Of a stretch of 49,453 nt of DNA, positions 1-38,649 are shown piece after piece. The notes under the pieces were generated by a model. It was given only the letters and a program-made list of their open reading frames with translations. It searched no databases and had not been told where the DNA came from. Source of the stretch: a virus. Its lineage: Duplodnaviria > Caudoviricetes. The position numbers and the translations under genes were made by a program. The stretch is taken from the IMG/VR virus record IMGVR_UViG_3300023214_000337, positions 1 to 49,453 of that record. One strand, 5' to 3'. Position 1 is the stretch's first letter; each line of letters begins with the position of its first letter.

Positions 1-341
1 CGACGACGACGACGGACCCGCGGACGTCGACCCGGAGCTCGCCGACGCCCTGCGCTCCGCCGTGTTCGAGGACGGGGCGTCGGTGCGGGAGCTTCGCCGA
101 CGCTACGACGACGTGTTCTTCCCGGTGTCGGTCGCCGACGGGACGCCGGTGTTCGAGGCCGGATCACGAACCCTGCTGCCGGTGCCGCCCGCGTTCCGTT
201 GAGTTCGCTGTACGCCACCGCGTCTGAGCTTGAGAAGTTCCCCGCCGTCACGGTGATCTCGTAAACCGCACGCGTGAAGGTGATACTTGCGCCTCCAGTA
301 ACGCCTTGTACATACTTCTGCTGTGGATCGTTGGCAGCCAT
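1..341 (-). CDS. Truncated putative structural protein (MAANDPQQKYVQGVTGGASITF...); after ~57 codons it runs into unrelated high-GC sequence
   Basis: ATG overlaps the stop of the 341..952 gene (TAATG); beta-strand-like N-terminus; no stop before the window edge. Confidence 0.5.
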   Translation of the reverse strand, partial: MAANDPQQKYVQGVTGGASITFTRAVYEITVTAGNFSSSDAVAYSELNGTRAAPAAGFVIRPRTPASRRRPTPGRTRRRSVGEAPAPTPRPRTRRSAGRRRAPGRRPRVRRRR

Positions 342-952
342 TAAATGGTTCCCTTCGGCGTACGCCCAAACTCTTCTCTTTTCCACTCGGTGAGTTGCTC
401 ATACCATCCTCTGACCTGCGCCGCGACCGTCACCGAGACACTGGCGTTGCCATTGGCTGCTTCGATGGTCACGGTCTGCCCGCTGACCAACTCTAATGAG
501 AAATCAAAGGCGTTAAGACCTTCGGAAACAACGAGTCCGCCGTCGCCGCCAAACGGCCGGTACAGCGCGCCACCGAGCTTTAGACGCCACGTGATGTCGG
601 GATAGAAGCTTGGCGCAAAGACCATCAATTGAATGTGTTCAATCTGGCCGGCGTAGTTGTTTGGGACCGTGAAGGTCGTCGCCGTGCTCGTGCTGGACGA
701 AGAGACTGATACCTCATCCCCGCCCGAGATGAACGTTGCCGCTTCGCGCGGTCGCTCCTTAAGGAACTGGATATGCTTCTCTTGCCATAGCAGGGATATC
801 AGTTCCCGCATCCGCTGCATCTCAGTGAAGTCATCGGACGGATCGACGGGTATCGTGGGCTGGACAACGCGTCCGGCAGGCGCGTGACCTTGCGGCCTGT
901 TGGTTTTATTGTAAAGCGGGCTCGTGAAGTCGCCCATGCCTTTTCTACCCAT
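341..952 (-). CDS. Putative minor virion protein with C-terminal beta-sandwich (jelly-roll-like) domain
   Basis: Tightly packed operon; alternating hydrophobic beta-strand pattern; N-terminal GMGDF motif shared with neighbouring proteins. Confidence 0.5.
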   Translation of the reverse strand: MGRKGMGDFTSPLYNKTNRPQGHAPAGRVVQPTIPVDPSDDFTEMQRMRELISLLWQEKHIQFLKERPREAATFISGGDEVSVSSSSTSTATTFTVPNNYAGQIEHIQLMVFAPSFYPDITWRLKLGGALYRPFGGDGGLVVSEGLNAFDFSLELVSGQTVTIEAANGNASVSVTVAAQVRGWYEQLTEWKREEFGRTPKGTI

Positions 953-955
953 GGT

Positions 956-1867
956 TTATTTCCACATTTTGTCGGCCAGAACAATCCCGCCGAGGGTTAG
1001 GTAAATGGTGTTGCTGCTCCCGCTCGTATCGAGCATGTCCACAATGAGCCGGCTGCCCTCCTCAAAGAAAATGCCCTGCTCAAACCTGAAGGGATAGTTG
1101 TTGTCTCCGACAATCAGGTTATCCGGAATGCGGTACGTCGTGCCTTCTGGCGCATCGATCACCGAGAAGTTTCGGTACGCATCCAAAATATTCAGCGAAT
1201 ACCGGCCCGTACTCGTGCCGCTGATATGCGTGAGCAGAAAGTGATGCCCACCGTTGATGTCGATCGGTACTTGGCTGCTTGCATCTCCACTAAGCGTGAC
1301 AGCGCCCTGGTTGAATGTATACCAGAACGGCATCGACATGCGCTCTTTGTCCTGGAATCGCCGCTTTACCTCCTCGAGCCGTGGATCGTAGATGACCGAG
1401 GTGTATTTGGCTGAAGGGAAAGCCAGCCGGACGTTGTTCGCGCTACCTGAGACGTCCTGGAACGCCGCTGAGAGGCTGTGGCCGGCATGCAGGTAGAGTG
1501 CCTCGGGCAGGATGTACGGGTTGGCGCCGCTGCCCATCATGGTATCGATGTGGACCGGCGCATTCATCAGCGAGAAGGGCTGCCGTCCGCTACCCAGCGA
1601 GAGAAGCACCGTCATCGCGCCCGTACGGTGCGCGGCCAGACGAGTAATCTCGATTGGACCGTCGCCGCTGTTGGTCATCGTGAACTGAGCGGATAGATCC
1701 GCAGATACGCTCAGCGACGTATCGGGCTGATCCCCGGTCAAAAAGAACGGTCGCTCATGCGATTTCTGGGAGGCCACCGCCAATACGCGCCCGTCTCGCT
1801 CCGGCGGTTCGCGCAGCGTAGCGAATCGATTTATCGTAGGACGTGGCCCATGCAGTATATTTCGCAT
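956..1867 (-). CDS. Putative capsid-associated protein with two tandem beta-sandwich repeats (paralogue 3)
   Basis: Internal repeat (PFFLT.../PFWYT...; P-Y-x-L/F; NxxxLxxxG ends); similar to 1867..2907 and 2907..3950. Confidence 0.55.
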   Translation of the reverse strand: MRNILHGPRPTINRFATLREPPERDGRVLAVASQKSHERPFFLTGDQPDTSLSVSADLSAQFTMTNSGDGPIEITRLAAHRTGAMTVLLSLGSGRQPFSLMNAPVHIDTMMGSGANPYILPEALYLHAGHSLSAAFQDVSGSANNVRLAFPSAKYTSVIYDPRLEEVKRRFQDKERMSMPFWYTFNQGAVTLSGDASSQVPIDINGGHHFLLTHISGTSTGRYSLNILDAYRNFSVIDAPEGTTYRIPDNLIVGDNNYPFRFEQGIFFEEGSRLIVDMLDTSGSSNTIYLTLGGIVLADKMWK

Positions 1868-2907
1868 TACGTTCTCCCTACGGGCGACTGGAAGTCAAGC
1901 TTTTCGAAGACGCGCTGCTGATCCGAGGGCGACTGCGGCGTCCCGACTTCCGTGTCTTTCAAGACCTGGAGTACCTTGTCGGGCTTGGCGTAGATCTTGC
2001 GCCCAAATAGCGTCAAGTAGACGGTATTTCCGCTGCTGGAAAGGTCGGTTAGTTTGAATCGCAATCGGTATCCGGGATACAGAAGGTACGTCGTCGGCCA
2101 GATCGCCGGAAAGTTGGCGTTACCGATCGCGTTGGTGTTGGTAACCACGCCATTCTGGAGCAACGTACGCGTGCGCGTTTCGGATATCTCCATGGAGAAG
2201 GCGCCGTCGGAGACCGCGGTCGCGCCGAAGATCTCGATGCAGGAGTCGTCGCTGTTTTTGAAGAAGAACTCGGACGCAGTATCGGCGGTTAGTTCCACAT
2301 CGGTGTCGGGCGTAATCCAGTACGGAATTACATATCTATTGCGAACCTCCCATCGCTTGACGATATCGACGATGCGCGCCTTCCAGTCCGGATTTATTGT
2401 GAGGTCGTTTGCCCATGGCGTGTAGAACGATCCGCACAGGTACATGCGTAGATTGCGCAGATTGGTGTTCTCGATGCGCGTGATTGTGCAATCCAAAAAG
2501 CTGTTCGACGGGAAAAGCAACGGCTCCCGCAACAGTGCTGGCGTCTGTGCGGTACCGGCAAAAGTCCTGATATGGATCGGCCTGCTCATCAGGTCTCGAG
2601 CGGCCGCGCGTTGCCGGATCTGGATCGTAAAGTTGCTATTGGCCGTGCCATTTTCGCTTTCGGTATGCACAATCTGCTGGATTAGGAACGGCGTACGCAG
2701 AGATGCATCCAACCAATTATTCGAAGATGACTGCTGCCGGTACTTTGGGCGTTGCGTGTTGTTGGCCGCGCCGGCAGAAAAGGTCAGTGCGCCATCCTGA
2801 CCATCAAAATACAACCAGTACGGCTTGATGGATCGCCGCCAAGTCTGCATCTCAAAGCCGTTCGGGCTTGGCTTGAATATCTTGTTGACGTCGCCTCGAG
2901 TCGGCAT
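1867..2907 (-). CDS. Putative capsid-associated protein with two tandem beta-sandwich repeats (paralogue 2)
   Basis: PYWLY/PYWIT, LMSRPIHI, GNANFP and VYLTLFG motifs shared with both neighbours; 1-nt gene overlaps. Confidence 0.55.
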   Translation of the reverse strand: MPTRGDVNKIFKPSPNGFEMQTWRRSIKPYWLYFDGQDGALTFSAGAANNTQRPKYRQQSSSNNWLDASLRTPFLIQQIVHTESENGTANSNFTIQIRQRAAARDLMSRPIHIRTFAGTAQTPALLREPLLFPSNSFLDCTITRIENTNLRNLRMYLCGSFYTPWANDLTINPDWKARIVDIVKRWEVRNRYVIPYWITPDTDVELTADTASEFFFKNSDDSCIEIFGATAVSDGAFSMEISETRTRTLLQNGVVTNTNAIGNANFPAIWPTTYLLYPGYRLRFKLTDLSSSGNTVYLTLFGRKIYAKPDKVLQVLKDTEVGTPQSPSDQQRVFEKLDFQSPVGRT

Positions 2908-3950
2908 CAGTTAGCTCCCTGCACCAAAAACGGCGCCTTCGTTACCCGACCCTTGTTCATTACGCGATCAAGCGAAAGGCCAAGGTAGTTGGCCACGCCG
3001 GCGAAAGTGAGGTAGACCTCGGTGCTCTGGTCAGTTATCAGGTTCGTAATTTCCAATTCGAGTTGCGTATTGGGCGGCATCAAAATCGGTGCCGGCAACG
3101 GATACGGAAAGTTCGCTGTGCCGAATCCGTTATTGAGGCTGATCGGTTCGGACTGTAGCGGATCTTCGGTCTGTGGATCGATGATCTTGACCGTGAACAT
3201 TTCCGTTGTATCGCCGGCAGCACCAGTGCTAAGCCCGCGCCCCATCAATTGGAAGAACGCGACCTCGATGTCGGTCGTATTCGAGAGAAATGCCTTGACT
3301 GTCGAACTGGCGGCTACCGTCACTGCGTTGTCGGTGGTCATCCAGTAAGGATAGAGATGGACTTTCCGCTCTCGAATCTGGTTGTACCGCATCTCTGCGT
3401 AGCGATGCGACAGATCCGCGTTCTGAATCTTGTATGCGCGTGCGCCGAAGTTGAAATTCGAACTCCCCACGCCGCTGTTGTTCTGGAACTCGAATGCAAG
3501 CGCTTGCTGGCCTTGCATGAGTATGGTCTCCAACAACTCAAACTGTTGAAGGTTATTGCCAAAGATATGATCGGCGAGGATGTGCCGATTCATCATGCGG
3601 CGGCGCCACATGATATCCGTAATTTGCACCTCAAGCCGGTTGGTGACCGCGCTGTTATCGCTGCCTCCGTGCTGACCGTACAAAGCAAACAGTTCCGCAA
3701 CGCCATCCTGTGGTCCTTCGATGATGACCGGAGCGCTGGTTGAATTGGTGGACGTGACAATCGGCTGGCGGGCATCCGCGGGAACAAGAATTGTTCCCTT
3801 AGCGTATCGAAGCAACTGGTTGAGATAGACGTTGCCCTGCTGGTCTTTGACGTAGTTCTTGAAAATTCCCACGGTGGACTCCTGACGGGTTTGGTTCCCC
3901 GAAGCCGGGTTATTTAAGAATGGGATGGGTGCGATAAACACCCATCCCAT
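2907..3950 (-). CDS. Putative capsid-associated protein with two tandem beta-sandwich repeats (paralogue 1)
   Basis: Start re-assigned to MGWVF (3950) to avoid overlap with the upstream gene; MMNRHI, PYWMT, GTANFP and VYLTFAG motifs. Confidence 0.55.
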   Translation of the reverse strand: MGWVFIAPIPFLNNPASGNQTRQESTVGIFKNYVKDQQGNVYLNQLLRYAKGTILVPADARQPIVTSTNSTSAPVIIEGPQDGVAELFALYGQHGGSDNSAVTNRLEVQITDIMWRRRMMNRHILADHIFGNNLQQFELLETILMQGQQALAFEFQNNSGVGSSNFNFGARAYKIQNADLSHRYAEMRYNQIRERKVHLYPYWMTTDNAVTVAASSTVKAFLSNTTDIEVAFFQLMGRGLSTGAAGDTTEMFTVKIIDPQTEDPLQSEPISLNNGFGTANFPYPLPAPILMPPNTQLELEITNLITDQSTEVYLTFAGVANYLGLSLDRVMNKGRVTKAPFLVQGAN

Positions 3951-3970
3951 TTCGCGTCTAGACGCCTTGT

Positions 3971-4633
3971 TTAGACGGCCTTGTACAACATCCCGATTAA
4001 GAAAACCTGAACGCGCGTCGCCGCCGAAACGGTGATGCCGGACGGATAGGTGATTTCGACGCCGAAGTTTTCGTTCGGCTGAATCCACAGCGTACGGTCG
4101 CGAATGTTGAACGGATAAACGTTCGACATGTGGCCGCTTCCGTTTTGTACTTCGGTGTATACCACCGCGCTCGTCGCGCCATCGGCGGCCAACGGACCTT
4201 CGGGCTTGATGCCCGCAGGAATCCGGTTGACCGGGATCTCCAGATAGACCCGAGATCCCGTGAAGGTGAAGACGAACGCGCCGGTATTTAAGATCAGGCG
4301 CATGTCCGCCAGCGTGGTACCGTACTCGATGACAACATTGAAGCCAAAGAGGGAAAATGTGTCTGGCGCGGAAAGCTGTCCCGTCTGGGTGAGATTTGTC
4401 TCACTTTTCGACTTGCTCGAGATCCCCCCCGAGGCATCGGCGCTACCCTGCGCGCGGCTGAACCATTTGCGCGAGGTAACGGAGCTGTTCGGGTACGATT
4501 CGGTATCGTACAACGGCTGCTTGAGTGGACGCAGGACAACCTTTTTGCCCTGGTACATGATGGTGCTGAGGGGGTAGCCCTTGGCGAATACCTGACCACC
4601 AACCTCTTCTTCGAACTGTGCCTGTCCAGGCAT
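3971..4633 (-). CDS. Putative major capsid protein, single jelly-roll-like (~220 aa)
   Basis: Strong RBS (AAGGAG) before ATG 4633; QPLYDT...ETNLTQTGQL motifs and beta-rich pattern; lies directly after the Arg-rich core genes. Confidence 0.55.
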   Translation of the reverse strand: MPGQAQFEEEVGGQVFAKGYPLSTIMYQGKKVVLRPLKQPLYDTESYPNSSVTSRKWFSRAQGSADASGGISSKSKSETNLTQTGQLSAPDTFSLFGFNVVIEYGTTLADMRLILNTGAFVFTFTGSRVYLEIPVNRIPAGIKPEGPLAADGATSAVVYTEVQNGSGHMSNVYPFNIRDRTLWIQPNENFGVEITYPSGITVSAATRVQVFLIGMLYKAV

Positions 4634-4744
4634 AACGCTTCTCCTTTTCTTAGAGCGCCCTAAATAGGTGTCACTCGGTGTCACTCATTTAAGGGTTAAC
4701 AAATGCGCTCCGGCCCTATGCTAGAGCGCTGTCAAAACAACTGA

Positions 4745-5416
4745 TTACCAAGCGTCGCCGCCGCCGCCGGTGAACTCGCTCATGCCCAGGCCTTGCAGCA
4801 TCGCGTTGTCCACGGAGTTGGCCGGTGCGGCCATGACCTTTGGAACGGTGGCGAAGTCGCCCATGCCATCCGTTCCGTTGAGGGCGCCGCTGTCGATCGA
4901 GCGGGCCTGTGCAATCGTGGTCTCGGTCGCGTAGTCGCCCACGTTATCGAGCCCGGTCATCTGCGCCACGCGCGGGAAGAACTGATCAACCGCGGTGGAG
5001 ACGACCTGGGCCAGCGCGCCGGTGAACAGGAGGTCGCTGTACTTCTTGACCCCCGGTACATATCGCGCCGCGCCACCGATCGCGCCCGCGCCTACCAGTC
5101 CGACCACGTACCGGCCAACACCGGCGCGGAGGAACTGCGGCATGAATGTCATGCCCGCGAGTTGATTGGTGAGGAACGCGTTGGCGGCCACGCCACCGAC
5201 CAAGATGCCCGCATCGCCGATCTTGCTCAGATCGAATCCGCTGGTGAGCGCCTTGGTGATCTTGGGGTTGTAGCGGTAGCTCCGGCGGCGCCGGCGCGGA
5301 TTACGACTCCGAGATTTACGCCGCGTGCGTCGACGTTGACGACGCGGATTGCTCGCGTAGCCCCAACCTTTGTTTCGCCGGCGGCGCCGGCGCGTTTTGC
5401 GTCTTTTCCTGGCCAT
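4745..5416 (-). CDS. Arg-rich N-terminal, multi-TM virion core/membrane protein
   Basis: About 50-aa poly-Arg region with NP motifs, then Gly-rich hydrophobic helices and a GMGDF-containing tail; RBS AAAGGA. Confidence 0.7.
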   Translation of the reverse strand: MARKRRKTRRRRRRNKGWGYASNPRRQRRRTRRKSRSRNPRRRRRSYRYNPKITKALTSGFDLSKIGDAGILVGGVAANAFLTNQLAGMTFMPQFLRAGVGRYVVGLVGAGAIGGAARYVPGVKKYSDLLFTGALAQVVSTAVDQFFPRVAQMTGLDNVGDYATETTIAQARSIDSGALNGTDGMGDFATVPKVMAAPANSVDNAMLQGLGMSEFTGGGGDAW

Positions 5417-5453
5417 GTGCCTATCCTTTCTTTTGAGCTGAACCGGAACCGGC

Positions 5454-6230
5454 TTAGGTTTCCGGCATATCGTTTATCCCGTCAAAGCTTGCCATGCCTT
5501 GAAGGGTGTTATCAATCGGGCGTGCCTGAGCGGCCTGATTGCTCGTCACGTAGTCTCCCATACCGCCCATACCTTGGAGATTGTTGTCAATCTGGCGTGC
5601 CCGAGCGGCCTGATTGCTCGTCACGTAGTCGCCCATGCATCCAGGACAACCCAGTCCGGTCAGCGCCTGCTGCAGCGGACCGGCCAGGTAGGCGTTGGCC
5701 ACGTCGCTAAGGACATAGGCCAGACCGCCGAGCGTGACATTGGTCTGGTACTTCTTCATGCCCGGGAGGAAACCGACCAGTAAGCCAGTCACGCCTGCTG
5801 TGGCGAGACCGATGCCCCACCGCACCGGCTGCGTCTGCAGTTGACTCGGCAGGAAGTTGGAAACATTGGATGCGAGGAATCCATTTCCGATGACGCCGCC
5901 GACGATCGGGACCGCATCTCCGATATTCTTGAGCTTGAAGCCTTTGGTCAGCGCCGCGACGGGATTCTGCGCCAGCGAAGCGCCGCGGTAGTTGCGCCGA
6001 CGCGGACGGTAGTTGTAGCGGCGCGACTTGCGTCGTGTTAGACGCTTGCGCTTGCGCCCGGGCATGCGGCGCGACTTGCGTCGTGTTAGACGCTTGCGCT
6101 TGCGGTTGCGGTAAAGCGGGTTCTTCCTTCGTCTTCGCTTGCGTCGTTTCATTTTACTACCCCTTCGAATTGGTTTTCCGCCTGGATTTGCGACCATGAT
6201 CCGAGTTGCCATTCCTATCTCCGCATCCAC
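5454..6230 (-). CDS. Arg-rich multi-TM virion core/membrane protein, paralogue of 4745..5416
   Basis: Shares ALTxGFxLxxIGDA and PGxKKY; has internal duplications RKRKRLTRRKSRR x2 and MGDYVTSNQAA x2. Confidence 0.7.
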   Translation of the reverse strand: MDAEIGMATRIMVANPGGKPIRRGSKMKRRKRRRRKNPLYRNRKRKRLTRRKSRRMPGRKRKRLTRRKSRRYNYRPRRRNYRGASLAQNPVAALTKGFKLKNIGDAVPIVGGVIGNGFLASNVSNFLPSQLQTQPVRWGIGLATAGVTGLLVGFLPGMKKYQTNVTLGGLAYVLSDVANAYLAGPLQQALTGLGCPGCMGDYVTSNQAARARQIDNNLQGMGGMGDYVTSNQAAQARPIDNTLQGMASFDGINDMPET

Positions 6231-6742
6231 TTATCTACGCGAAGCGTAGACGGCCCGTAAATGATGTTGCCTTGTTGGTCCTGCCAAGCCTTGGGCCATG
6301 TACCGCCTTCATCGTCGTGCTTATGGACCCAGTATTTTCCGCGCTTAAAAGTTCCTGCCTTTTCGAGCGCGGCGCTCGGCACGTAATCCGTTTGAGGCAC
6401 CCACCCAAGGAACTTCTTTTTCCGGCGGTTGCCTCTTCTTTGTTTGCTCTTACGTTTGCGCAGCAGCATGACCTGCTTACCGTTGGCATCAGCCACGACA
6501 AGGAACGGTCCTTTAATCCTCCGGGCGCGACCGCCTTTGCCTTGCGGCTTGCCGGAGATGTACGCGTGCGGCGTAGTCCCAAGACCGACCATGCGTACGG
6601 TTTTGTTTGGTCCTGGGATTTCGTAATCATCGAGTTCGACCGGGTACGGGACGCCCCAAAACTTGCGATAACGAGCGAGCGCTTTACGCCCTTCTTTAGT
6701 CGCCGCATAATTCGACAAAGCTTGCTTGTAAGGCTCTGGCAT
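6215..6742 (-). CDS. Hypothetical basic protein in virion operon (start uncertain; frame open further upstream)
   Basis: Globular-looking sequence from MPEPYKQ; fills the gap between co-oriented genes. Confidence 0.55.
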   Translation of the reverse strand: MPEPYKQALSNYAATKEGRKALARYRKFWGVPYPVELDDYEIPGPNKTVRMVGLGTTPHAYISGKPQGKGGRARRIKGPFLVVADANGKQVMLLRKRKSKQRRGNRRKKKFLGWVPQTDYVPSAALEKAGTFKRGKYWVHKHDDEGGTWPKAWQDQQGNIIYGPSTLRVDKWMRR

Positions 6743-6878
6743 GGAGTCTTCCAAGTCTTCGTCGTATTCCGGCGGTGGATCGTCATCTTCGTCATGATGC
6801 CTGTTGTACCCAATGAACTCTTGCCTTAGCGCTGCTGCTTCGCGGATGAGCTTGCCGTAGCGCTCTTTCGCGGACTCT

Positions 6879-7475
6879 TTAGTAGCGAAACGAACGCCTT
6901 CGCCGGCGCCCCCCCTTCCGGCCGCCTTGCTTGCGTCCGCGATAGATTCGCGCGGCTTTTTGAACGCCGTGTTTCTTGACCAGGCTCTGCCAACTGGATC
7001 GACGCGTCCGGCGGCGCCGGCGCGGATTGGCGTAACGGATACGCTTCGTGCGGCGCGAGGGGTAGCAGTGTGGGCGACCTTTTTTACCCTTACCGAGTAT
7101 CTTAACGGACCGCTTCCACTGGTTTCGCGCCCAGCGCAACGCGGCTTTCCCCCGCGTGCGCTTGTGACGCCGTTTGTAGGCGGCAACCTTGCGCTTAATG
7201 AATTCGGGATGGGTGTAGTGCTTCTTCCCGATTTTCGCCCGAAGCTTATAGGTGCTGCGGCGTCTGCCGCGCGTGGTTCGCCGTTTCTTTCGTGCCATGG
7301 GTTTCCCCTTTCTTCCGTAAGGGTTGTGGACGATCATGAGTTCGGGATTGCGCACAGTACGGTATCCCCCATTCATTGCATGCCCGTGGATAGGGCATGT
7401 ACAAAGCGGATTTCGTTGCGGCAAGAGCCGCGGTCCGACAAGGCTTTCTGGAGTGGCCTCGTATTCGTGCATCAC
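6879..7475 (-). CDS. Highly basic Arg/Lys-rich putative DNA-condensing protein with four NP motifs
   Basis: Composition; QRNP, VRNP, VHNP and YANP motifs; ATGA overlap with the upstream gene. Confidence 0.65.
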   Translation of the reverse strand: MMHEYEATPESLVGPRLLPQRNPLCTCPIHGHAMNGGYRTVRNPELMIVHNPYGRKGKPMARKKRRTTRGRRRSTYKLRAKIGKKHYTHPEFIKRKVAAYKRRHKRTRGKAALRWARNQWKRSVKILGKGKKGRPHCYPSRRTKRIRYANPRRRRRTRRSSWQSLVKKHGVQKAARIYRGRKQGGRKGGRRRRRSFRY

Positions 7476-8890
7476 GCGAGAACCCTTCCTTTGGCTGTTT
7501 TGATCGCGGAAGTCTTGGGCTGGCTGCGCGCGAGCGCGGTGGCGCGACGACGCGGGCCTTTGAAGACGTCATATGCGATGTAGGCAGCTCCGGCTGCAAG
7601 AGCCGCCCACATCGCCGTGCGCACAAAATCCGTTGATTTATCGATGGCTACGCCGCTGGAGCGAATCACATTGGCAAGCTGGTCCAGGTATCCGCGCGAG
7701 GATGCCGAGTTGCCGCGCAATGAATCGACCAGTGCCGAAAGCCCCAGCGCGGCAAGTCCGGCTGCGGCGATAATGGCGGCCACGGGCAACGCCTGTATGG
7801 CGCCCAGTCCCGTATATGGCAGATTGCGAAACCGCTGCGGATTGACGGTGCTTGCCGTGGCGATGTTTACAGCCTGCGCCACGGAATTGTATTTCTCCAA
7901 TGCTTCGTTCAGCTTGCGAAGCATCTGTTGGAGCGAGTCGTTGGCCTGCTGCCAAAGCCCTTCAGCTTCGACGCGTTTGGGGCCTTTCGGCATTTTTGCG
8001 ATGTCGATGCGGCGTTGTGCCAGTTCTTTGCGCATCTTTTCGTAGTTGCGCTGCGCCTCTACAAGGTCGCCGTACATGGAGCCATCGGCGACGCTGTAGA
8101 TGGTGGAAATCGTACCTTGATCGGGTATGCCGATCGACGTGTCGTCTACCAGTGCGAGGTCGCCCATGCCCGGCGTCTGGCCGCTGGGCTGCCCACCGGC
8201 ATAATCGATCTGGCGGTAATCGGCGGATGGACCTTGGACGTTACGGTCAAGGTCAACGACGCCTGGAATGGGGCCTTCGGCTAATCCCATTACGCTAGCA
8301 TCCCCCTCTTCCTGCATCGGATCGGTTGATGCAGGCCACGCCTTGCGCGGAAACCGCTTTGGCGGTTCCCAGCCGAAAGGAACGCGAGGTTCCATCGTAA
8401 CGTCCATGCCCTTCCAATCGCGCACCCCCCCACCTTTGCGCGGCAGACCGACTTGAAGATAGACGTGTGAGAACTCGTTGGGTTTGCTTGGATCGGCTTT
8501 GATGGTAATGTACCGGCAGGGCAGTCCAATACCTTCGAGCATCGAAGCCAGCAGCACGCAGACGCTGTCGCAGTCCCCGCCGCCCGCTTCCAGAAGCTTG
8601 CGCGGATGCTCGACGTATTCCACATTGACCGGATCGTAGACGTACTGAATTTTGTCGCGGCAAAATTCGTAGCATTTTTGCGCGTAGCAGGCGTAGTCCT
8701 TCTTTTTGCATTGACTGGCTAGTCTGATGGCCAGTTGCCGCACGCGCTGATCGCGCTTGCCCTTGCCGACAAGCATTTGCATGCCCGCGATCGTTTGAGC
8801 GGTGCCGGCGTTGCCCGAAGGAATCGACTTGCGCTGGTGCGACTTCGGGAGGCCGGCTGCAATCGGATTGAGCTGTCCAGTGAACAGCAT
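7472..8890 (-). CDS. Transglutaminase-like (Cys-His-Asp) domain protein with coiled coil and C-terminal TM helices; possible maturation protease
   Basis: GGGDCDS, SHVYLQV and GMDVT triad motifs of the transglutaminase-like superfamily; two hydrophobic C-terminal segments. Confidence 0.8.
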   Translation of the reverse strand: MLFTGQLNPIAAGLPKSHQRKSIPSGNAGTAQTIAGMQMLVGKGKRDQRVRQLAIRLASQCKKKDYACYAQKCYEFCRDKIQYVYDPVNVEYVEHPRKLLEAGGGDCDSVCVLLASMLEGIGLPCRYITIKADPSKPNEFSHVYLQVGLPRKGGGVRDWKGMDVTMEPRVPFGWEPPKRFPRKAWPASTDPMQEEGDASVMGLAEGPIPGVVDLDRNVQGPSADYRQIDYAGGQPSGQTPGMGDLALVDDTSIGIPDQGTISTIYSVADGSMYGDLVEAQRNYEKMRKELAQRRIDIAKMPKGPKRVEAEGLWQQANDSLQQMLRKLNEALEKYNSVAQAVNIATASTVNPQRFRNLPYTGLGAIQALPVAAIIAAAGLAALGLSALVDSLRGNSASSRGYLDQLANVIRSSGVAIDKSTDFVRTAMWAALAAGAAYIAYDVFKGPRRRATALARSQPKTSAIKTAKGRVLA

Positions 8891-9000
8891 GCATCGACGT
8901 ACTCTTGGTTTTTTGTTGTAGCAATGGACCGTCGCAGGACGCGATCGGGTTTTAATTGGGCCTTCAATTTGCCCAGCAGGTATTCATATGTCGGCAGTCA

Positions 9001-9029
9001 GGAATACGGGGCGCTGCCCTTGTTGTCAA
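9001..9029 (-). promoter_or_regulatory. Putative sigma70-type promoter for the structural operon
   Basis: TTGACA-17nt-TATTCC on the minus strand, upstream of 8890. Confidence 0.4.
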
Positions 9030-9036
9030 CACTTTT

Positions 9037-9351
9037 CTAGCCGGCTACTATCCTCGCATTGTACGAATTTCCGCTTTTGCGTATCTTTTCTAAAAGCTGT
9101 CTCTGCTTCTCTGGCGTCTTCCCATTTATGATCATAACCTCTTGTGCTGTATGGCACTTAGAGCAATTCAAGTCCACGAGAATACCGAATCCGCCTTGCG
9201 GAAGAATGAGAGCTTCGATACGGAATAAAAATTTTTTGCAATCGGGGCAAAAAACTTTTCCATCTTTGGTGTGACATGCTGCTGATCGGTTGCGCCTTCT
9301 AATCTTCGTCATCGTCATCGGTTTCTTCGATGTCGTCCATGAAATCGTCAA
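9037..9351 (-). CDS. Small zinc-ribbon protein (Com-like)
   Basis: CPDCKKFLF...CSKC; start uncertain. Confidence 0.5.
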   Translation of the reverse strand: MTISWTTSKKPMTMTKIRRRNRSAACHTKDGKVFCPDCKKFLFRIEALILPQGGFGILVDLNCSKCHTAQEVMIINGKTPEKQRQLLEKIRKSGNSYNARIVAG

Positions 9352-9727
9352 GGCGCTCCATCAAATCAGCATTCACATCGATGATGTGCTCGCCTTGGTA
9401 TTTGATCGCAACCAGCATCTCGGGGAGCGTGAAGACCTCGGCTTCGGTCTTGCCTTGAGGGTTCTCAACGTTATCGACCCGCATTGGAACGGTATAGAGA
9501 TACCGCAAGACCGCGGAAGTGGTTTGTTTGGCCACGATCGCCGAGATTTGATTGACCCCCTCCTTAAGAAGGGCCACCGTCCTCGGCGAGGTGCCTATCT
9601 TTTCGGCCAGTCGCTCCACGAAGTCGTCAATCTCTTTGTCGCGACTCTTTCCTCCGGAGTTTCCGCTCGTCTCAACGTCAACAAACTCGACGTCTTCAAA
9701 ATCCTTCCGCTTCTTCTTATCAGCCAT
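9299..9727 (-). CDS. Hypothetical acidic protein
   Basis: Start at MADKKKRK overlapping the upstream stop; acidic tail. Confidence 0.6.
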   Translation of the reverse strand: MADKKKRKDFEDVEFVDVETSGNSGGKSRDKEIDDFVERLAEKIGTSPRTVALLKEGVNQISAIVAKQTTSAVLRYLYTVPMRVDNVENPQGKTEAEVFTLPEMLVAIKYQGEHIIDVNADLMERLDDFMDDIEETDDDDED

Positions 9728-11594
9728 TGGTGCGATCCCTGTGCATGTCGATTGCCACATCCCAAGCGTTCATGAACGGCACATATGCAGTCTTCGCGTT
9801 CTCCGGATTACGCAGAATGTCAACGAGACTACTCATGACGTCCTGCCGACAGTAATGATTGACCAACTGGAGCCTCTTGTAGTGACTGTCGGTACCCTTT
9901 CCGAGCGCCTGCATCGCGTCCATGAACTTATTGTTCAGCTCGCCGGCCGCGATACCGGTCCACCGCGGATTAACCAAACCATCCTTGGCGTCCTGGACCG
10001 CCATCTCCATCAACTCCGTGAGCGACGCCCTTAAGCGTTGTTCGGAGTCCGGGGCCAGCTGCGGCAGGTTGATCTGATTGCTCTGCTGCGGCGCCTGCTG
10101 TTGGCTCTGAGCGGATTGGGCTTGTGGCTGCGCATTTGGCTGCGGCGCTTGCGGATTCTGCTGCGGTGCTTGCGGCGGCGCTGGTTGGCCAGGGATAGAT
10201 ACATCCAAGGAAGGCACCTGCTGAGGCGGTGGCAATTGCTGCGGTGGTGCTTGTTGCTGCGGATTGCCAAGGGCTGGCAGTTGCTGGGTAGGAGGATTGA
10301 GCAGGCGCCCGGCTAGTCCTTGCGCGAGCGACTGACCCAGCGTCGTCCACATGCTGCTGCCTCCGCCGCCTTCTTCGTCGCCGCCGGTACCGCGCACGGT
10401 ATCCACGAACTGCTGGAACTTCATGAAGTCTTCCATGGGATCGCCGAAGCGCTTGTCCATCATCTTGGTGAAGAATTCATTCATCAGTCGATCCGAGTTC
10501 TTCTCGCCGGCTTGGACCATCTTCAGGAACATCTCATTGGTTTGCTTGCGCTCGGCTTCGCGCTCTCGGTCTGCCTCTGCCTTCGCCGAGGAAATCTTGG
10601 CATCGGCATCCGCCTTAATCTTCGCCTCCTGGAGGCGGACTTCGGCGTTTTTGTCGGCCTCGTACTTTCGGGCTTCCGCTTCGGCTTTGGCTTTTTCCGC
10701 AGCCGCCTTCGCTGACTCTTCGGCGGAATCCTGCTCCTTCTTGAGGAGGGTGAGCAAAATTTCCTTCGTACCGTCCTCTTTGGGTTGGTTATTCGCCATC
10801 GCCTGCATCGTATCTTTCATCATCGATGCGAAGGAATTCATCATGTCCTTCATCTCGTATCGAAGCTGCTCGATGGGCTGCATGCTAGAACGCTCCCTTT
10901 CCTTGCGTTCGCGCTCCTCGGCCTCTTTACGTTCCTTCTCTCGGCGCCGCTTCTCCTCCTCTCGACGTTGCTGAGCATCTTCGAACTTAGCCTCCTCTTC
11001 GTCGATCTCCCGTTGATGCTTGAGCTTCTCTTTCTTCTCTCGCAGTTCCAGGAGCTCCCTCGATCCACCGGGGAAGGGAAGCGCTGCTGCCGAGCCATAT
11101 CTGCCGTTGCTGGGCGCATCCTCGTCATCCACGATGATGTTTTTTTTGTGTTTAATATTGGGCGGCACGTCTTCGGTGTCGATCGAAAGATCGATCGAGC
11201 TCTCTTCGGCGCCTTGACTGCTGAAAACGATGATGCGGTATGATCCGCCGCCAAGCTTATCTTCGATTTCTTCATATACCTCTCGGTAGGAGCATAGGCT
11301 ATTGATCTTGATCAGATCGCTGCGCGTGTTTAGGACTTTGTTCTTCCACATCGTCGGCAACTTGCGCCGAACAGTCAGGTACCAGTTACTCTTGTCGACG
11401 TCGTTGCAGTGTCCATTCAGCCATGCGATGCGCTCCACGTTGTTTTTTGTCGCGCCCGGCTCTTTCTTCGCGTCGCCCGGTGTAACCGGCCGCTTGTAAG
11501 TGACCTCTCGTGTCTCTTTGACCTGAGCGGAGTCGTCGGGCGTTTTCGGCTGCGGGAGCGAGATGGTTTTGGCTTCGGCCATTGTTGTCGTCAT
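9720..11594 (-). CDS. Large coiled-coil protein with Gln/Pro-rich linker
   Basis: 624-aa ORF; E/K/R-rich heptads; QQAPPQQ region. Confidence 0.75.
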   Translation of the reverse strand: MTTTMAEAKTISLPQPKTPDDSAQVKETREVTYKRPVTPGDAKKEPGATKNNVERIAWLNGHCNDVDKSNWYLTVRRKLPTMWKNKVLNTRSDLIKINSLCSYREVYEEIEDKLGGGSYRIIVFSSQGAEESSIDLSIDTEDVPPNIKHKKNIIVDDEDAPSNGRYGSAAALPFPGGSRELLELREKKEKLKHQREIDEEEAKFEDAQQRREEEKRRREKERKEAEERERKERERSSMQPIEQLRYEMKDMMNSFASMMKDTMQAMANNQPKEDGTKEILLTLLKKEQDSAEESAKAAAEKAKAEAEARKYEADKNAEVRLQEAKIKADADAKISSAKAEADREREAERKQTNEMFLKMVQAGEKNSDRLMNEFFTKMMDKRFGDPMEDFMKFQQFVDTVRGTGGDEEGGGGSSMWTTLGQSLAQGLAGRLLNPPTQQLPALGNPQQQAPPQQLPPPQQVPSLDVSIPGQPAPPQAPQQNPQAPQPNAQPQAQSAQSQQQAPQQSNQINLPQLAPDSEQRLRASLTELMEMAVQDAKDGLVNPRWTGIAAGELNNKFMDAMQALGKGTDSHYKRLQLVNHYCRQDVMSSLVDILRNPENAKTAYVPFMNAWDVAIDMHRDRTNG

Positions 11595-11869
11595 CCTTCC
11601 ACGATGGGCTTAAGGTGCCTGTACTTGCGTCCCGCCTGACGGACATCGTAGGCGAGTTGCTTAAGCGCCCAATTGTCGGGCGCCTGGTTAAGGGACTTGC
11701 CAATCTTCACGCCCAGGTTGACCGTGATGCGGCGCCTCCCCTTGCAGATGTCGGTGAGGGTACTTTGGCTGATCTTGCAGTTTGTCGCCAATGCGCACTG
11801 GCTGATCTCGAGTGCCTTCAATTGGGCGCAGAGTTCCAGTCCTGGATGTGATCTTTTTGATGTCGGCAT
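11591..11869 (-). CDS. HigA-like/XRE helix-turn-helix protein
   Basis: HPG...ISQCALA...ISQSTLTDICKGRRRIT...W..Q..YD pattern typical of the HigA family; no HigB toxin adjacent. Confidence 0.75.
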   Translation of the reverse strand: MPTSKRSHPGLELCAQLKALEISQCALATNCKISQSTLTDICKGRRRITVNLGVKIGKSLNQAPDNWALKQLAYDVRQAGRKYRHLKPIVEG

Positions 11870-11979
11870 ATATTGACTATTTCGCGAAAAGGTCTAAGCT
11901 ACAGCCTGCGATGTTTTACTGCACGACCGGATGTCTGTCTAGAAAGAAAAACTGGAGAAGCTTCGGATTGTCTGAATGA

Positions 11980-12768
11980 ATGAAGAATGACCTGCATCAC
12001 GTTCCACCGGTAGGGCATCTACCGTTGCCCTACGGCAAACGCGTCCTTAAACACTTCGCCGCTAAGGGCATCGATGGTATGTCAGTCAAAGAACTAATTG
12101 AAGCTGGAAAAGCCATAAATATATGGGAGCCAAATAAAGAAGACCTTGATCGAGCCTTCATCTTTCACATGTGTGAGGCCGGGTACTCGATCGAGGCGGT
12201 GCTTAAGCTTTACAAGCGTCGTGATAACGCACTGAGCGGTGCGCGCAAGTACATCGTTGACTTGTACAACGATGCCTATCAGGCACTAGAGGACGCCGAG
12301 GTCTCAATCAAGCGACGCAGGAAGACGCCCGAGCGCCGCGACACCTATGACGATGTGCCGGCTGTCTTGGCGTTGCTACACTTCGTGCGTATTTTGATTG
12401 AAACAGAAGACCCGTTGATCGTCGACGGCCTCAAACAAGGCAAGTTTTATTACCAACTTAGCATGTGGAATCCCGACATATTGAAAATCAATACGATGAA
12501 CTGTTGCGATATCGTATCGGCATATGGCTCTCGGGAGAATGTATTGTGGCCTGACCTACTGACGGTGAGGCGGTCTGTCCGGAAGGCAAGGCGAGATCAG
12601 GAGCCGTGGTACTTGGGGAAAGACCACCGATTCACGTATATACACTATGGCATACGGAGAAACTACAGTGCCGAGCTCTTCAACCGCCGGCTGCTCATCC
12701 ATATGGGCTACTGGACCGACAAGGACTCGTTGGTCCGCGATATACTCTTCGCAAAAAAAGAAGATTAG
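11980..12768 (+). CDS. Hypothetical protein (possible regulator)
   Basis: 262-aa ORF divergent from the structural operon. Confidence 0.6.
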   Translation: MKNDLHHVPPVGHLPLPYGKRVLKHFAAKGIDGMSVKELIEAGKAINIWEPNKEDLDRAFIFHMCEAGYSIEAVLKLYKRRDNALSGARKYIVDLYNDAYQALEDAEVSIKRRRKTPERRDTYDDVPAVLALLHFVRILIETEDPLIVDGLKQGKFYYQLSMWNPDILKINTMNCCDIVSAYGSRENVLWPDLLTVRRSVRKARRDQEPWYLGKDHRFTYIHYGIRRNYSAELFNRRLLIHMGYWTDKDSLVRDILFAKKED

Positions 12769-12813
12769 GCTTGCATAAGTGTGAAAGCTAGGTAAATTCC
12801 TGATTTGAACGCT

Positions 12814-12891
12814 CGCGGGGTGGCGCAATATGGCAGCGCGCTGGGCTGCTAAACCCAGAGGTTGCAGATTCGAATCCTGTTCCCGCTACCA
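12814..12891 (+). tRNA. tRNA with initiator (fMet)-like body and 8-nt anticodon loop (CUGCUAAA); possibly atypical or pseudo
   Basis: Cloverleaf: acceptor cgcgggg/tcccgct-A-CCA, D stem gcgc/gcgc, anticodon stem ctggg/cccag, TTCGAAT loop. Confidence 0.8.
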
Positions 12892-13030
12892 ACAGTAGGC
12901 TGTACGAAGATCGGCAATCTTCAGATTTACACAATTGAATATGCAACCGGGGCGTCGCTGTTCCTCCTCTTCAGCGCGGGTTTCCTGCCGACACCTGTAC
13001 AGCGCCCCGGTTGCTTACCTTGGAGGTGTC

Positions 13031-14605: not shown

Positions 14606-14643
14606 AGGAAGATGCTTTCATTGGGATTGAGATTGATTGGACG

Positions 14644-15693
14644 ATGAATCGAGAAGAGGCTGTACGCAATGAGAAGCTTTTTCTGGATACGTTGGGCATA
14701 GATAAGCACCCAACGGACCACGCCTATTGCCCGTTTCATGGTGAGGAGCGAGGGAGTAGCAACTCACCATCGCTTATGACCAGAGTACAGGACGACGGGA
14801 CACATTATTTCAAGTGTCACAGTTGCGGTGTCAAAGGGACGGTCATTGACGCAATTATGGAATTACGAAACACAGATTTTAAAGGCGCGGCACAGATACT
14901 CGGTATTGAGATGCAGGGCTACCGTCCTATGCCTCTTTCCGTAAACAATGCCGTAAACAATGGATCGCCACCGCGCAAACCCAAGACACCATCGGAACCT
15001 TTAATTCCCGTTCCTGACGGGGAGAAGATGGAGGCATACATATCGTCAAAGCGCGAAGACATGTATCGCGATCTAAACGGGCAAACCGCCATTGAATTCC
15101 TATATGAAAAGCGCAAAATCACGGACGAAGTGGCCACGGAGTATTCCATCGGCGTTGACCGCCTTTCGTTTGACGATAGCGGAAGGATTACGCGTTGCCA
15201 GTGGGTGCTGCCTATCACAAACGATGCTGGAGTATGTTACGGCGTCAAGACGCACTGGGAGGGCAACCGCCCCATCAATCCCAAGACAGGACGCAAGGTT
15301 CCTAAGTGCCTATGGAGGAAGTTTGGGACTATGCCCAAGGATAAGCCAATACATCGTTATATCACGGCATGGCCAGCGCCCGAGACGTTCAATGCTGAAC
15401 ATTGGCTATTTTTGCATGGGGGCGAACTCAAGGCGCTGTCTATGCTGAGTGCTGGCGCGAACGCATGCGCGATCACGGCCAGTGAGTCGTTCGAGTGGAC
15501 GCCTAAACTGCTCGGTCGATTTAAAGGGCGCAAGGTGTGCCTCATATATGACGATGATGAATTAAAGATAAATAAACGCACCGGCGCGCAATGGAAACCG
15601 GGGGAGAAATGGCGAGACCGAGGTCTCGAAGCGCTTCGGACTGTGGCGACCAATGTCGAAGCATTGACCTTTTGGGAGTGCCTAAGTGGCTGA
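14644..15693 (+). CDS. DNA primase-like protein (CHC2 zinc finger + TOPRIM-like)
   Basis: CPFHGE...SPS...FKCHSCG; GGELKALS and YDDD TOPRIM-like motifs. Confidence 0.8.
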   Translation: MNREEAVRNEKLFLDTLGIDKHPTDHAYCPFHGEERGSSNSPSLMTRVQDDGTHYFKCHSCGVKGTVIDAIMELRNTDFKGAAQILGIEMQGYRPMPLSVNNAVNNGSPPRKPKTPSEPLIPVPDGEKMEAYISSKREDMYRDLNGQTAIEFLYEKRKITDEVATEYSIGVDRLSFDDSGRITRCQWVLPITNDAGVCYGVKTHWEGNRPINPKTGRKVPKCLWRKFGTMPKDKPIHRYITAWPAPETFNAEHWLFLHGGELKALSMLSAGANACAITASESFEWTPKLLGRFKGRKVCLIYDDDELKINKRTGAQWKPGEKWRDRGLEALRTVATNVEALTFWECLSG

Positions 15694-19890: not shown

Positions 19891-19987
19891 CAGCCCCATC
19901 CCTGGGATACATGGGGGCACCTATCTCCACGCGGTGCGCGCTGGGCGGCTGCAATGGGCAGCTGGCGGACAGGGACACACACACATG
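19882..19987. repeat. Deleted copy of the hairpin module at 42279-42448
   Basis: catcagggccagccccatccctgggatacatgggggcacctatctcca joined to cgcggtgcgcgctgggcgg...acacacatg. Confidence 0.9.
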
Positions 19988-19994
19988 GCCCAAG

Positions 19995-38619: not shown

Positions 38620-38649
38620 GCCCGGCGCCAAGAGCAGAGGGAGAAAACC

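What the first reader, a model, noticed from the sequence alone, without database searches (positions are those of the whole stretch)
341..11869. Tailless-virus-like morphogenesis module (jelly-roll-like proteins plus basic cores) joined to a tailed-phage-like replication and accessory genome
Seen: an 11.5-kb co-oriented operon with beta-sandwich proteins, Arg-rich multi-TM proteins and a transglutaminase-like enzyme. No terminase, portal, tail or packaging ATPase is in view, while the other 38 kb resemble Caudoviricetes accessory content. Inference: an undescribed lineage of large (>49 kb) membrane-containing icosahedral viruses that may condense DNA with basic proteins.
Basis: inference. Interest (0 to 1): 0.75.

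Follow-up and report, generated by a model that had tools for sequence, protein, structure and literature searches.

The report
Large tailless jelly-roll phage, SSIP-1 relative
This gene block likely builds the particle of a large uncultured bacterial virus with no tail, portal or terminase genes in view: it encodes a predicted single jelly-roll shell protein, three predicted double jelly-roll proteins and very basic proteins that would pack the DNA without a motor, and it belongs to a widespread lineage whose only cultured relative I found is the salt-water phage SSIP-1.

Summary
Confirmed, with corrections. The 341-11869 block is a co-oriented virion module. Gene 3971-4633 folds (pLDDT 90) as a single jelly roll whose top three structural matches are shells of tailless viruses (HHIV-2, SPV1, HCIV-1; Z 7-8). 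Gene 956-1867 folds as a double jelly roll (STIV MCP Z 11.8) and has two paralogues beside it. The family is large: 1,118 clusters at 50% identity, and 149 of 173 motif-scan loci. Gene order is kept in 37-106-kb relatives, two of them complete; none showed a terminase, HK97, A32 or HerA gene. Gene order and several homologies tie it to the cultured, membrane-containing phage SSIP-1, so the lineage is undescribed but has a cultured anchor. Corrections: bases 1-172 are a chimeric join and the virus runs on to the left (probably about 77 kb in all). The 'multi-TM' helices are marginal. Tailed-phage-like accessory arms are the norm in this lineage, not a one-off graft. Two extras: the double jelly roll looks like a tandem of a single-domain minor protein found in most relatives, and a stripped-down version of the module sits in bacterial chromosomes with no replication genes seen.

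The parts
1..172 (.). Not viral: chimeric join with a high-GC fragment of other DNA
   Evidence: Loose ends at 173 in runs X1, X2 and X4; 1-126 lies on a depth-10 contig against depth 123 for the virus; GC 0.73
173..341 (-). g1, first 56 codons of a small beta-rich protein, candidate penton or vertex protein (inferred); cut by the chimera
   Evidence: The same position holds a 102-108-aa gene in G006, L108 and L151; fold not tested
341..952 (-). g2, 203-aa beta-rich minor structural protein with an N-terminal GMGD motif
   Evidence: 27% identical to the G006 orthologue, E 5e-15; its profile hits SSIP-1 gp47 at E 2e-4
956..1867 (-). g3, predicted double jelly-roll protein (303 aa), likely a minor shell protein
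   Evidence: AF2 pLDDT 73.5; VIA Z 11.9 GH172, 11.8 STIV MCP, 11.2 DUF2961, 9.5 PM2 P2 and PRD1 P3; Atlas TM 0.53-0.56 to GH172/DUF2961
1867..2907 (-). g4, paralogue of g3 (346 aa)
   Evidence: phmmer E 1e-14 to g3; two repeat domains; orthologue in G006 35% identical
2907..3950 (-). g5, paralogue of g3 (347 aa, ATG at 3950)
   Evidence: phmmer E 3e-18 to g4; orthologue in G006 31% identical
3971..4633 (-). g6, predicted single jelly-roll protein (220 aa), best candidate for the major capsid protein
   Evidence: AF2 pLDDT 90.5 on 104 sequences; VIA top three HHIV-2 Z 8.1, SPV1 7.6, HCIV-1 6.9; Foldseek top PDB hit SPV1, E 9e-3; 1,118 clusters at E<=1e-3; AAGGAG ribosome site upstream
4745..5416 (-). 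g7, Arg-rich N-arm with NP repeats, three-helix hydrophobic core, acidic tail with GxGD-type motifs
   Evidence: paralogue of g8, E 2e-33; the family profile's best SSIP-1 hit is gp44, E 0.004
5454..6212 (-). g8, paralogue of g7 (252 aa)
   Evidence: internal 70-nt repeat
6215..6742 (-). g9, basic conserved protein; first ATG at 6742, but the frame is open and conserved up to about 6880
   Evidence: 43% identical to the G006 orthologue; relatives start 68-75 codons before a shared motif, G000 has no ATG/GTG/TTG there
6879..7472 (-). g10, protamine-like protein (net +62, 34% R+K, four NP motifs), candidate DNA-condensing protein
   Evidence: Arg-rich genes at the same position in G002, G003, G004, G006 and L151
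7472..8890 (-). g11, transglutaminase-fold enzyme (Cys107-His142-Asp163) fused to a coiled region and a C-terminal membrane anchor
   Evidence: PF01841; only INPHARED hit is SSIP-1 gp34, E 1e-9; DC[DE] present in 44 of 45 family members; hydropathy peak 2.39
9037..9351 (-). g12, small ORF with two CxxC pairs, start unclear
   Evidence: Sequence; no Pfam or PHROG hit for 9040-9285
9299..9727 (-). g13, acidic 142-aa protein
   Evidence: Genes of 104-143 aa sit at this position in G002, G003, G004, G006 and L151; sequence homology not detected
9720..11594 (-). g14, 624-aa coiled-coil and Q/P-rich protein heading the structural arm; no Walker A
   Evidence: 544-694-aa genes at the same position in G001-G004 and G006-G008; 20% identical to G006, E 7e-7; SSIP-1 gp33 is similar in position and make-up only
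11591..11869 (-). g15, HTH regulator (HigA/Xre-like)
   Evidence: PF01381 E 1e-4; phrog_1381 E 3e-9
11980..16897 (+). Divergent replication block: SF2 helicase (13031-14605), DnaG-type zinc-finger primase (14644-15693), AAA_25 RecA-type helicase (15686-16897)
   Evidence: one contig of 13,837 nt at depth 131 covers 6075-12000 and runs 7,912 nt beyond

Best explanation
This block is likely the particle-building operon of a tailless icosahedral virus of bacteria, probably about 77 kb and distantly related to phage SSIP-1: the predicted single jelly-roll g6 likely forms the shell, the predicted double jelly-roll g3-g5 and the small beta proteins g1-g2 likely form minor shell and vertex parts, and the Arg-rich g7, g8 and g10 would condense the DNA and tie it to an inferred inner membrane, so that no packaging motor would be needed. 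Steps. Shown: gene order, the homologies, the predicted folds, the charge of the arms, the intact Cys-His-Asp triad, and no terminase, HK97, A32 or HerA hit in complete relatives. Inferred: (1) g10 and the g7/g8 arms coat the new DNA, as VP1 does in SPV1. (2) The hydrophobic cores of g7/g8 and the anchors of g11 and downstream proteins recruit a lipid layer. (3) g6 closes an icosahedral lattice around it, with g1-g5 at vertices or under the shell. (4) The g11 enzyme matures the particle by cutting (or, less likely, cross-linking) at the G-[MLV]-G-[DA] motifs that recur in these proteins. (5) The divergent arm replicates the DNA with a helicase, primase and RecA-type helicase of the kind tailed phages use.
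For: Folds: g6; g3. SSIP-1 links in matching order gp34...gp44-gp45/46-gp47: TGase profile E 9e-46, g7/g8 profile E 0.004, g6 profile E 0.04 with a collinear 140-column alignment, minor jelly-roll profile E 9e-6. SSIP-1's record marks gp34 and gp44-gp48 as structural proteins, and reviews describe it as tailless, membrane-containing, T=49, 44 kb. Module conservation: TGase in 37 of 41 loci with at least 7 kb upstream; the minor jelly-roll family in 56 of 59 loci with at least 1.5 kb downstream. No motor: P-loop candidates in 2 of 54 loci with at least 4 kb on one side. Complete G002 (59.8 kb, 144-nt terminal repeat) has no credible Walker A protein. PF03237, PF04665, PF01935 and PF05065 are absent from G001-G005 and from the three viral contigs in G006-G008, while the controls rang. 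Motifs: 7 G[MLV]G[DAMC] against 0.43 expected, and 10 NP against 1.7 expected, each reached by 0 of 2000 shuffles (patterns chosen after seeing them). Bacterial hosts: lysozyme-like, SLT and M15 genes in relatives.
Against: The g6 match is modest (Z 6.9-8.1, Foldseek E 9e-3, TM 0.35-0.41), in the range the tool calls common, and the g6-gp46 sequence link is weak (hhalign probability 1%). The window lacks the left part of the structural arm, so a motor gene there is not excluded for this virus itself. Complete G005 encodes an unassigned 798-aa protein with a Walker-A-like N-terminus on the opposite strand, L069 has a same-strand 623-aa P-loop candidate 9.4 kb upstream, and SSIP-1 has a virion ATPase, gp40 (RecA/AAA_25-type by Pfam). 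Five of the six hydrophobic segments in g7/g8 are below the usual membrane-helix threshold. The GxG motif is not enriched in G006 (204 of 300 shuffles reach it), and NP is not enriched in G006 or G008 (my gene caller truncated some genes). The double jelly-roll proteins, not g6, could be the main shell proteins.
Confidence: 0.75

Rival explanations
1. The double jelly-roll proteins g3-g5 are the major capsid proteins (a Varidnaviria-type lattice, perhaps a heterotrimer), and g6 is a minor or scaffold protein.
For: g3 matches the STIV, PM2 and PRD1 major capsid proteins over 200-230 residues at Z 9.5-11.8, better than g6 matches anything.
Against: The tandem form occurs in only 15 loci against 63 with the single-domain form only. 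Its copy number varies from 1 to 3, while g6 holds a fixed place with the strongest ribosome site. Reviews give SSIP-1 two single-barrel major proteins, which by size and position would be gp45/gp46 (my inference; the original paper was not held).
Confidence: 0.12
2. Tailless virus, but the DNA is pumped in by a divergent or host ATPase that the searches missed, so the basic proteins only neutralise charge after packaging.
For: SSIP-1 gp40 is a virion ATPase. G005 has a 798-aa P-loop-like protein and G007 a RadA-like one. Genomes of 60-106 kb are large for motor-free assembly (established knowledge: SPV1 is 20 kb).
Against: These ATPases are sporadic and lie in the accessory arm. G002 is complete with none found.
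Confidence: 0.15
3. The block is the tail-less remnant or accessory module of a tailed phage whose head and tail genes lie in the missing part.
For: The replication and accessory genes hit PHROGs of tailed phages; Atlas taxon labels for the g6 and g3 look-alikes are mostly Uroviricota.
Against: There are no head or tail genes in complete G002 and G005 or in 77-kb G006, whose 25 kb beyond g1 has no PHROG head or tail hit. The Atlas labels rest on few members.
Confidence: 0.03
4. The join between the structural block and the 38-kb arm is an assembly artefact.
For: The left end of the record is chimeric, and repeated mosaic segments occur near 19.8-20.0 kb. Continuity beyond about 20 kb was not checked by reads.
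Against: Contigs of three runs cover the g15 end of the block and run past 12000. The same divergent layout is in G002-G004 and G006-G008, and two arm genes hit G006.
Confidence: 0.05

Closest known systems
[quoted passage not shown]
   Same: Tailless, internal membrane, T=49, 44-kb circular genome (reviews). Homologous virion TGase (gp34), preceded by a coiled-coil Q-rich gene. Block of membrane protein, single jelly roll and 256-aa two-domain-sized protein in the same order. GMG and ENP motifs. Phage-like accessory genes.
   Different: SSIP-1 has two ~210-aa proteins (gp45, gp46) where the window has one g6, and one gp47 where the window has three double jelly rolls. It has a virion ATPase (gp40) and no protamine-like protein of g10's size. 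The genome here is probably about 77 kb. The g6-gp46 similarity is at the edge of detection.
Portogloboviridae (Sulfolobus polyhedral virus 1; VP4, PDB 6OJ0)
   Same: [quoted passage not shown] VP4 is g6's top Foldseek PDB hit.
   Different: SPV1 has an archaeal host, a 20-kb genome and no replication proteins. No TGase or double jelly-roll protein is described for it in the text I read. Homology of its VP1 to g10 was not tested.
Singelaviria / Helvetiavirae (Halopanivirales: HHIV-2, HCIV-1, P23-77)
   Same: Vertical single jelly-roll shell proteins: chains of the HHIV-2 and HCIV-1 particles and P23-77 VP17/VP16 score Z 5.8-8.1 against g6.
   Different: They use two paralogous major capsid proteins and an FtsK/A32 ATPase. 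Here there is one g6 in the module and no such ATPase in relatives.
Varidnaviria double jelly-roll viruses (STIV, PM2, PRD1; the ATPase-less Odin and FLiP groups) and cellular DUF2961/GH172
   Same: g3 has the double jelly-roll fold. The Odin and FLiP groups also lack a packaging ATPase (PMC5894146).
   Different: Their prokaryotic members are under 20 kb (PMC8812541) and the double jelly roll is their major protein. Here its two halves are sequence homologues of each other and of a single-domain protein (E 1e-22 to 1e-27), which points to a separate origin.

Membership tests
Caudoviricetes | HK97-fold capsid, terminase and portal | tested here: not met
   No hit in the window proteins scanned nor on 8 related records or contigs (portal checked only through the PHROG/Pfam scans of G002, G003, G005, G006). 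The window's own missing part was not seen.
Singelaviria / Helvetiavirae | Vertical single jelly-roll major capsid protein | tested here: met
   Predicted fold only; top three VIA matches are tailless single jelly-roll viruses at Z 6.9-8.1; the role as major protein is inferred
Singelaviria / Helvetiavirae | Two paralogous major capsid proteins | tested here: not met
   One g6 in the window's module; some relatives carry 2-3 tandem copies (G007, L112)
Singelaviria / Helvetiavirae | FtsK-HerA/A32 packaging ATPase | tested here: inconclusive
   None in the visible window or in 8 relatives, but the window's structural arm is cut
Singelaviria / Helvetiavirae | Internal lipid membrane | not testable with these tools
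   Only marginal hydropathy and the SSIP-1 analogy
Portogloboviridae | About 20-kb circular genome, Sulfolobales host | tested here: not met
   More than 49 kb; relatives of 37-106 kb carry bacterial cell-wall hydrolases
Portogloboviridae | Single jelly-roll hexon plus single jelly-roll penton | tested here: inconclusive
   g6 matches VP4; the penton candidate g1 is truncated and was not folded
Portogloboviridae | VP1 nucleoprotein core | not tested
   g10 is protamine-like; no comparison with VP1 was made
Varidnaviria (double jelly-roll viruses) | Double jelly-roll fold | tested here: met
   g3, Z 11.8 to STIV MCP over 228 residues
Varidnaviria (double jelly-roll viruses) | The double jelly roll is the major capsid protein and is homologous to known DJR-MCPs | tested here: inconclusive
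   No Pfam or PHROG hit; most relatives carry only the single-domain form
SSIP-1-like viruses (informal, no ICTV taxon) | gp34-type TGase and the gp44-gp47 block in order | tested here: met
   E 9e-46, 0.004, 0.04 and 9e-6 for the four links
SSIP-1-like viruses (informal, no ICTV taxon) | Virion ATPase gp40 within the structural region | tested here: inconclusive
   Not in the visible module; the window's AAA_25 gene lies beside the primase; the left arm is missing

The most novel reading that the evidence does not exclude
A vast unclassified group of large (37 to over 100 kb) motor-less bacterial viruses with a single jelly-roll shell, in which a single-domain minor protein was duplicated in tandem, perhaps more than once, to give double jelly-roll proteins independently of Varidnaviria. 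One branch was domesticated: TGase, shell protein, membrane protein and minor jelly rolls sit in bacterial chromosomes under a regulator, followed by variable hydrolase-like genes with GxG leaders, which would make a virus-derived jelly-roll cargo particle comparable to encapsulins or gene transfer agents.
Probability: 0.35. Interest if true: 0.9.

Novelty: new variant of a known kind. Interest (0 to 1): 0.7.

Why it matters
In the papers I could read, prokaryotic double jelly-roll viruses are under 20 kb, the motor-less SPV1 is 20 kb, and single jelly-roll viruses were known only from extreme habitats. This lineage is common (over a thousand 50%-identity clusters), reaches 60-106 kb, has no Pfam or PHROG markers for its structural genes, and is easily mislabelled as tailed phage because of its accessory genes. 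It gives SSIP-1, unclassified since 2012, a family context. It makes two questions testable: whether a genome of 60-100 kb can be encapsidated without a motor, and whether a double jelly roll can arise by tandem duplication inside a single jelly-roll virus, which bears on the 2025 split of Singelaviria from Varidnaviria. The chromosomal cassettes may offer an expressible model, since none of the large viruses is cultured.

Tried and rejected
Complex prediction of four g6 copies gave no answer; not used as evidence either way. No RNA holder was listed. The 76,917-nt contig that holds g3, g6, g11 and g14 could not be retrieved: an exact-pattern scan of metagenome contigs found nothing. Protein-seeded locus searches in viral contigs found no confirmed relative, and the deep alignment was too diverse for that tool. 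A PDB sequence search with the g6 profile and tblastn of g6 against INPHARED found nothing. Foldseek of g3 against PDB gave mostly PHM and unrelated beta proteins. BFVD entry I1ZBH9 (211 aa, the best TM for g6) may be SSIP-1 gp46, but one search did not confirm it. Profile-profile comparison found no sequence link between g6 and the minor jelly-roll family or g2 (E 0.14-0.43). A g14 homologue search returned only itself. A programmed frameshift fusing g10 to g9 was considered and not supported: relatives have their own ATG at that point. Promoter and terminator scans were at chance level. Read continuity over 20-49 kb remains unchecked.
Full report
What the window is. The window is a whole IMG/VR record, linear, 64% complete by CheckV. 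All 13 genes called between 341 and 11869 lie on the minus strand; a plus-strand replication arm begins at 11980. None of g1-g10 or g12-g14 hits Pfam or PHROGs; g11 is a transglutaminase-fold enzyme and g15 an HTH protein. The first 172 bases are not viral. Contigs of runs X1, X2 and X4 leave the window at 173, one of them going on for 2,587 nt at depth 123, while 1-126 lies on a depth-10 contig, and GC drops from 0.73 to 0.575. These runs are one study and two may be the source of the record. The same proteins are on record on a 76,917-nt contig, which I could not retrieve. One X1 contig of 13,837 nt covers 6075-12000 and runs 7,912 nt further, so the module and the start of the replication arm are very probably one molecule; continuity beyond about 20 kb is unchecked.

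Folds. With a 104-sequence alignment g6 folds at pLDDT 90.5. Against 48,161 solved chains the top three matches are chains of HHIV-2 (Z 8.1), SPV1 (7.6) and HCIV-1 (6.9); P23-77 VP17 and VP16 follow at 6.3 and 5.8 among many unrelated jelly rolls. Foldseek's best PDB row is SPV1 (E 9e-3). These scores are modest; what carries weight is that the three best are all tailless single jelly-roll viruses. g3 (pLDDT 73.5, 6 sequences) matches double jelly rolls over about 230 residues: GH172 Z 11.9, STIV MCP 11.8, DUF2961 11.2, PM2 P2 and PRD1 P3 9.5. g4 and g5 are its paralogues.

The family. A g6 profile finds 1,118 clusters at 50% identity (348 at E<=1e-10). A degenerate motif scan returned 173 loci, of which 149 carry the family: 6 of 15 viral, 29 of 38 GTDB and 114 of 120 metagenome loci (the metagenome scan stopped after 16 of 64 parts). 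The order is stable: large coiled-coil protein, small acidic protein, TGase, anchored proteins, Arg-rich NP proteins, membrane-core protein, g6, minor jelly roll, g2/g1-like genes, fibres and lysis genes. TGase is present in 37 of 41 loci with at least 7 kb upstream, and the minor jelly roll in 56 of 59 with at least 1.5 kb downstream. I read whole records of G001 (106 kb), G002 (59.8 kb, terminal repeat), G003 (66.4 kb), G004 (67.3 kb) and G005 (36.8 kb, terminal repeat), and the viral contigs of G006 (77.2 kb), G007 (61.5 kb) and G008 (58.7 kb). The closest of these, G006:C68, has orthologues of g2-g9, g11 and g14 at 20-44% identity and 25 kb more of structural-looking genes after the g1 position. 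Adding a similar arm to the window gives about 77 kb, which fits the 76.9-kb contig (inference). MAG labels (Acidipila, Planctomycetota, Nitrospiraceae) are bin assignments of stand-alone contigs and do not show the host; cell-wall hydrolases in relatives indicate bacteria.

Missing motor. Terminase_6N, Pox_A32, DUF87/HerA and HK97 Phage_capsid gave no match on G001-G005 or on the three viral contigs; the hits in the MAGs lay on other contigs and the controls rang. PHROGs found no head, portal or terminase family in 43 G006, 33 G002 and 26 G005 proteins of 150-170 aa or more; smaller proteins were not scanned. A six-frame Walker A scan found nothing credible in complete G002, and 2 of 54 longer loci had a P-loop candidate (strict pattern). 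Against this reading: G005 has an unassigned 798-aa protein with a Walker-A-like start, G007 a RadA-like protein in the accessory arm, L069 a same-strand candidate, and SSIP-1 a virion ATPase, gp40, which Pfam places with RecA-type AAA_25 rather than A32.

Cultured relative. The only INPHARED match of g11 is SSIP-1 gp34 (E 1e-9). Lineage profiles searched against 28 SSIP-1 proteins hit gp34 (9e-46), gp47 (9e-6), gp44 (0.004) and, weakly, gp46 (0.04, collinear over 140 columns), in the same order as in the window. The record marks these as structural proteins. SSIP-1 is unclassified. Reviews call it tailless, membrane-containing, T=49, about 100 nm, with two major protein types (PMC6356626, PMC6260650, PMC4958249, PMC5332951: passages seen). 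The original paper (PMC3344969) was not held, so its protein assignments and supplements are unseen.

Mechanism. g10 (+62) and the arms of g7 (+29) and g8 (+40) are protamine-like. Their hydrophobic cores are marginal as membrane helices (1 of 6 segments above 1.6), whereas g11's anchor is clear (2.39). G[MLV]G[DAMC] occurs 7 times in g2, g7, g8 and g11 (0.43 expected) and NP 10 times in g7, g8 and g10 (1.7 expected), 0 of 2000 shuffles each. The patterns were chosen after inspection. A related GxG pattern is enriched in 4 of 5 relatives and an NP pattern in 3 of 5. The TGase keeps DC[DE] in 44 of 45 members. The simplest reading is SPV1-like assembly around a nucleoprotein core (PMC8459092, whole text; lack of ATPase from PMC8812541, passages), with maturation by the Cys-His-Asp enzyme at the GxG sites. 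That transglutaminase-fold enzymes of prokaryotes are often proteases is my own knowledge, not a call.

Origin of the double jelly roll. The minor protein is single-domain in 63 loci and tandem in 15, the window included. Single-domain ORFs cut by contig ends were dropped before the count; their number was in an output that was lost; L108 and L151 are near-identical. The two halves match each other and the single form at E 1e-22 to 1e-27. In a g6 tree the window sits in a clade (support 0.956) whose members, where visible, mostly have tandem forms (L107 shows one domain). In a domain tree the halves of L091/L106 and of L112 group apart from the main set, hinting at more than one duplication, but deep nodes are weak. 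This fits an origin inside a single jelly-roll lineage, separate from the DUF2961 route proposed for Varidnaviria (PMC8812541) and used to create Singelaviria (PMC12714852, passages). It remains an inference.

Chromosomal cassettes. In G009:C4 (1.7 Mb), G010:C16 (0.96 Mb), G011:C3 (1.25 Mb) and G264:C3 (4.35 Mb), and on short contigs L064/G255 and L066, the core TGase, g6-like, GxG membrane protein, single minor jelly roll and a further small gene sits among cellular genes. A BTAD or response-regulator gene precedes it in G009-G011, and OmpA, NlpC/P60, M23 or amidase genes follow, several with an MY...GxG leader. I saw no replication or Arg-rich genes in the 38-60 kb read. These g6 homologues form one clade (0.989). 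Against a tidy reading: G009's cassette is next to a terminase-like gene on the other strand, transposases and a recombinase, and the cassette is rare (3 of 301 genomes of G011's order), so it may be a decayed or mobile island.

Novelty. Ten literature searches (listings only) showed no paper describing this lineage or the cassettes; subscription journals are mostly not held. Yutin 2018 (PMC5894146, passages) describes ATPase-less DJR groups of 7-11 kb, which are different. This scan has noted similar viruses often (31 notes in at least 26 genomes); these are unchecked repeats of the idea, not support, and I found the SSIP-1 link before reading them. Three look-ups for the cassettes or this g6 found nothing. 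Verdict: a real, undescribed large variant of the SSIP-1/SPV1 kind of virus; interest 0.7.

Noticed in passing
G009:C4 ~1272900-1284000 (L207), G010:C16 (L210), G011:C3 (L213), G264:C3 (L218-L219), G255:C34 (L220), L066: Minimal chromosomal cassette (TGase, g6-like jelly roll, GxG membrane protein, minor jelly roll, then variable hydrolase or OmpA-like genes with MY..GxG leaders) among cellular genes, with a regulator upstream and no replication genes seen: a possible domesticated virus-like particle system.
   Followed up: partly
G003 62369-63121; G004 46275-46751; G005 14849-15322 and 15879-16427; G007:C24 3342-3923: Extra, divergent copies of the g6 family lie in the accessory arm away from the structural operon; they could interfere with the assembly of rival viruses (speculation).
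   Followed up: no
G007:C24 41984-44149: Three near-identical tandem copies of the g6 gene; L112 has two.
   Followed up: no
window 6215-6880: g9's conserved N-terminal region has no ATG/GTG/TTG in this virus, while relatives start there; a non-standard start codon is possible.
   Followed up: partly
window 37974-48581: Repeated intergenic elements (GCGCGGGAATGAGCCC core with AGAGGAG ribosome sites, 5-6 copies) before accessory genes, like early-promoter or gene-cassette repeats.
   Followed up: no
window 19846-20045: A mosaic of exact or near-exact copies of 42243-42446 and 28162-28212; either a real duplication or an assembly join.
   Followed up: no
window 12814-12891: tRNA-like gene with an irregular anticodon loop, between the module and the helicase.
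   Followed up: no
window 28561-29194: Two overlapping ORFs, one with a lipoprotein-like LTAC signal, resembling a spanin pair; would suggest a host with an outer membrane (no Pfam hit).
   Followed up: no
window 40087-40710, 44720-46363, 48804-49453: Two ankyrin-repeat proteins and a subtilase-domain fusion in the accessory arm.
   Followed up: no
L022:7405-8961 (G003): The TGase gene of G003 carries an intein (Pfam Intein_splicing).
   Followed up: no
L002:24775-25737 (SSIP-1 gp40): SSIP-1's virion ATPase is RecA/AAA_25-type and lies two genes from a primase, like the primase-helicase pair here; it may not be a packaging motor.
   Followed up: partly
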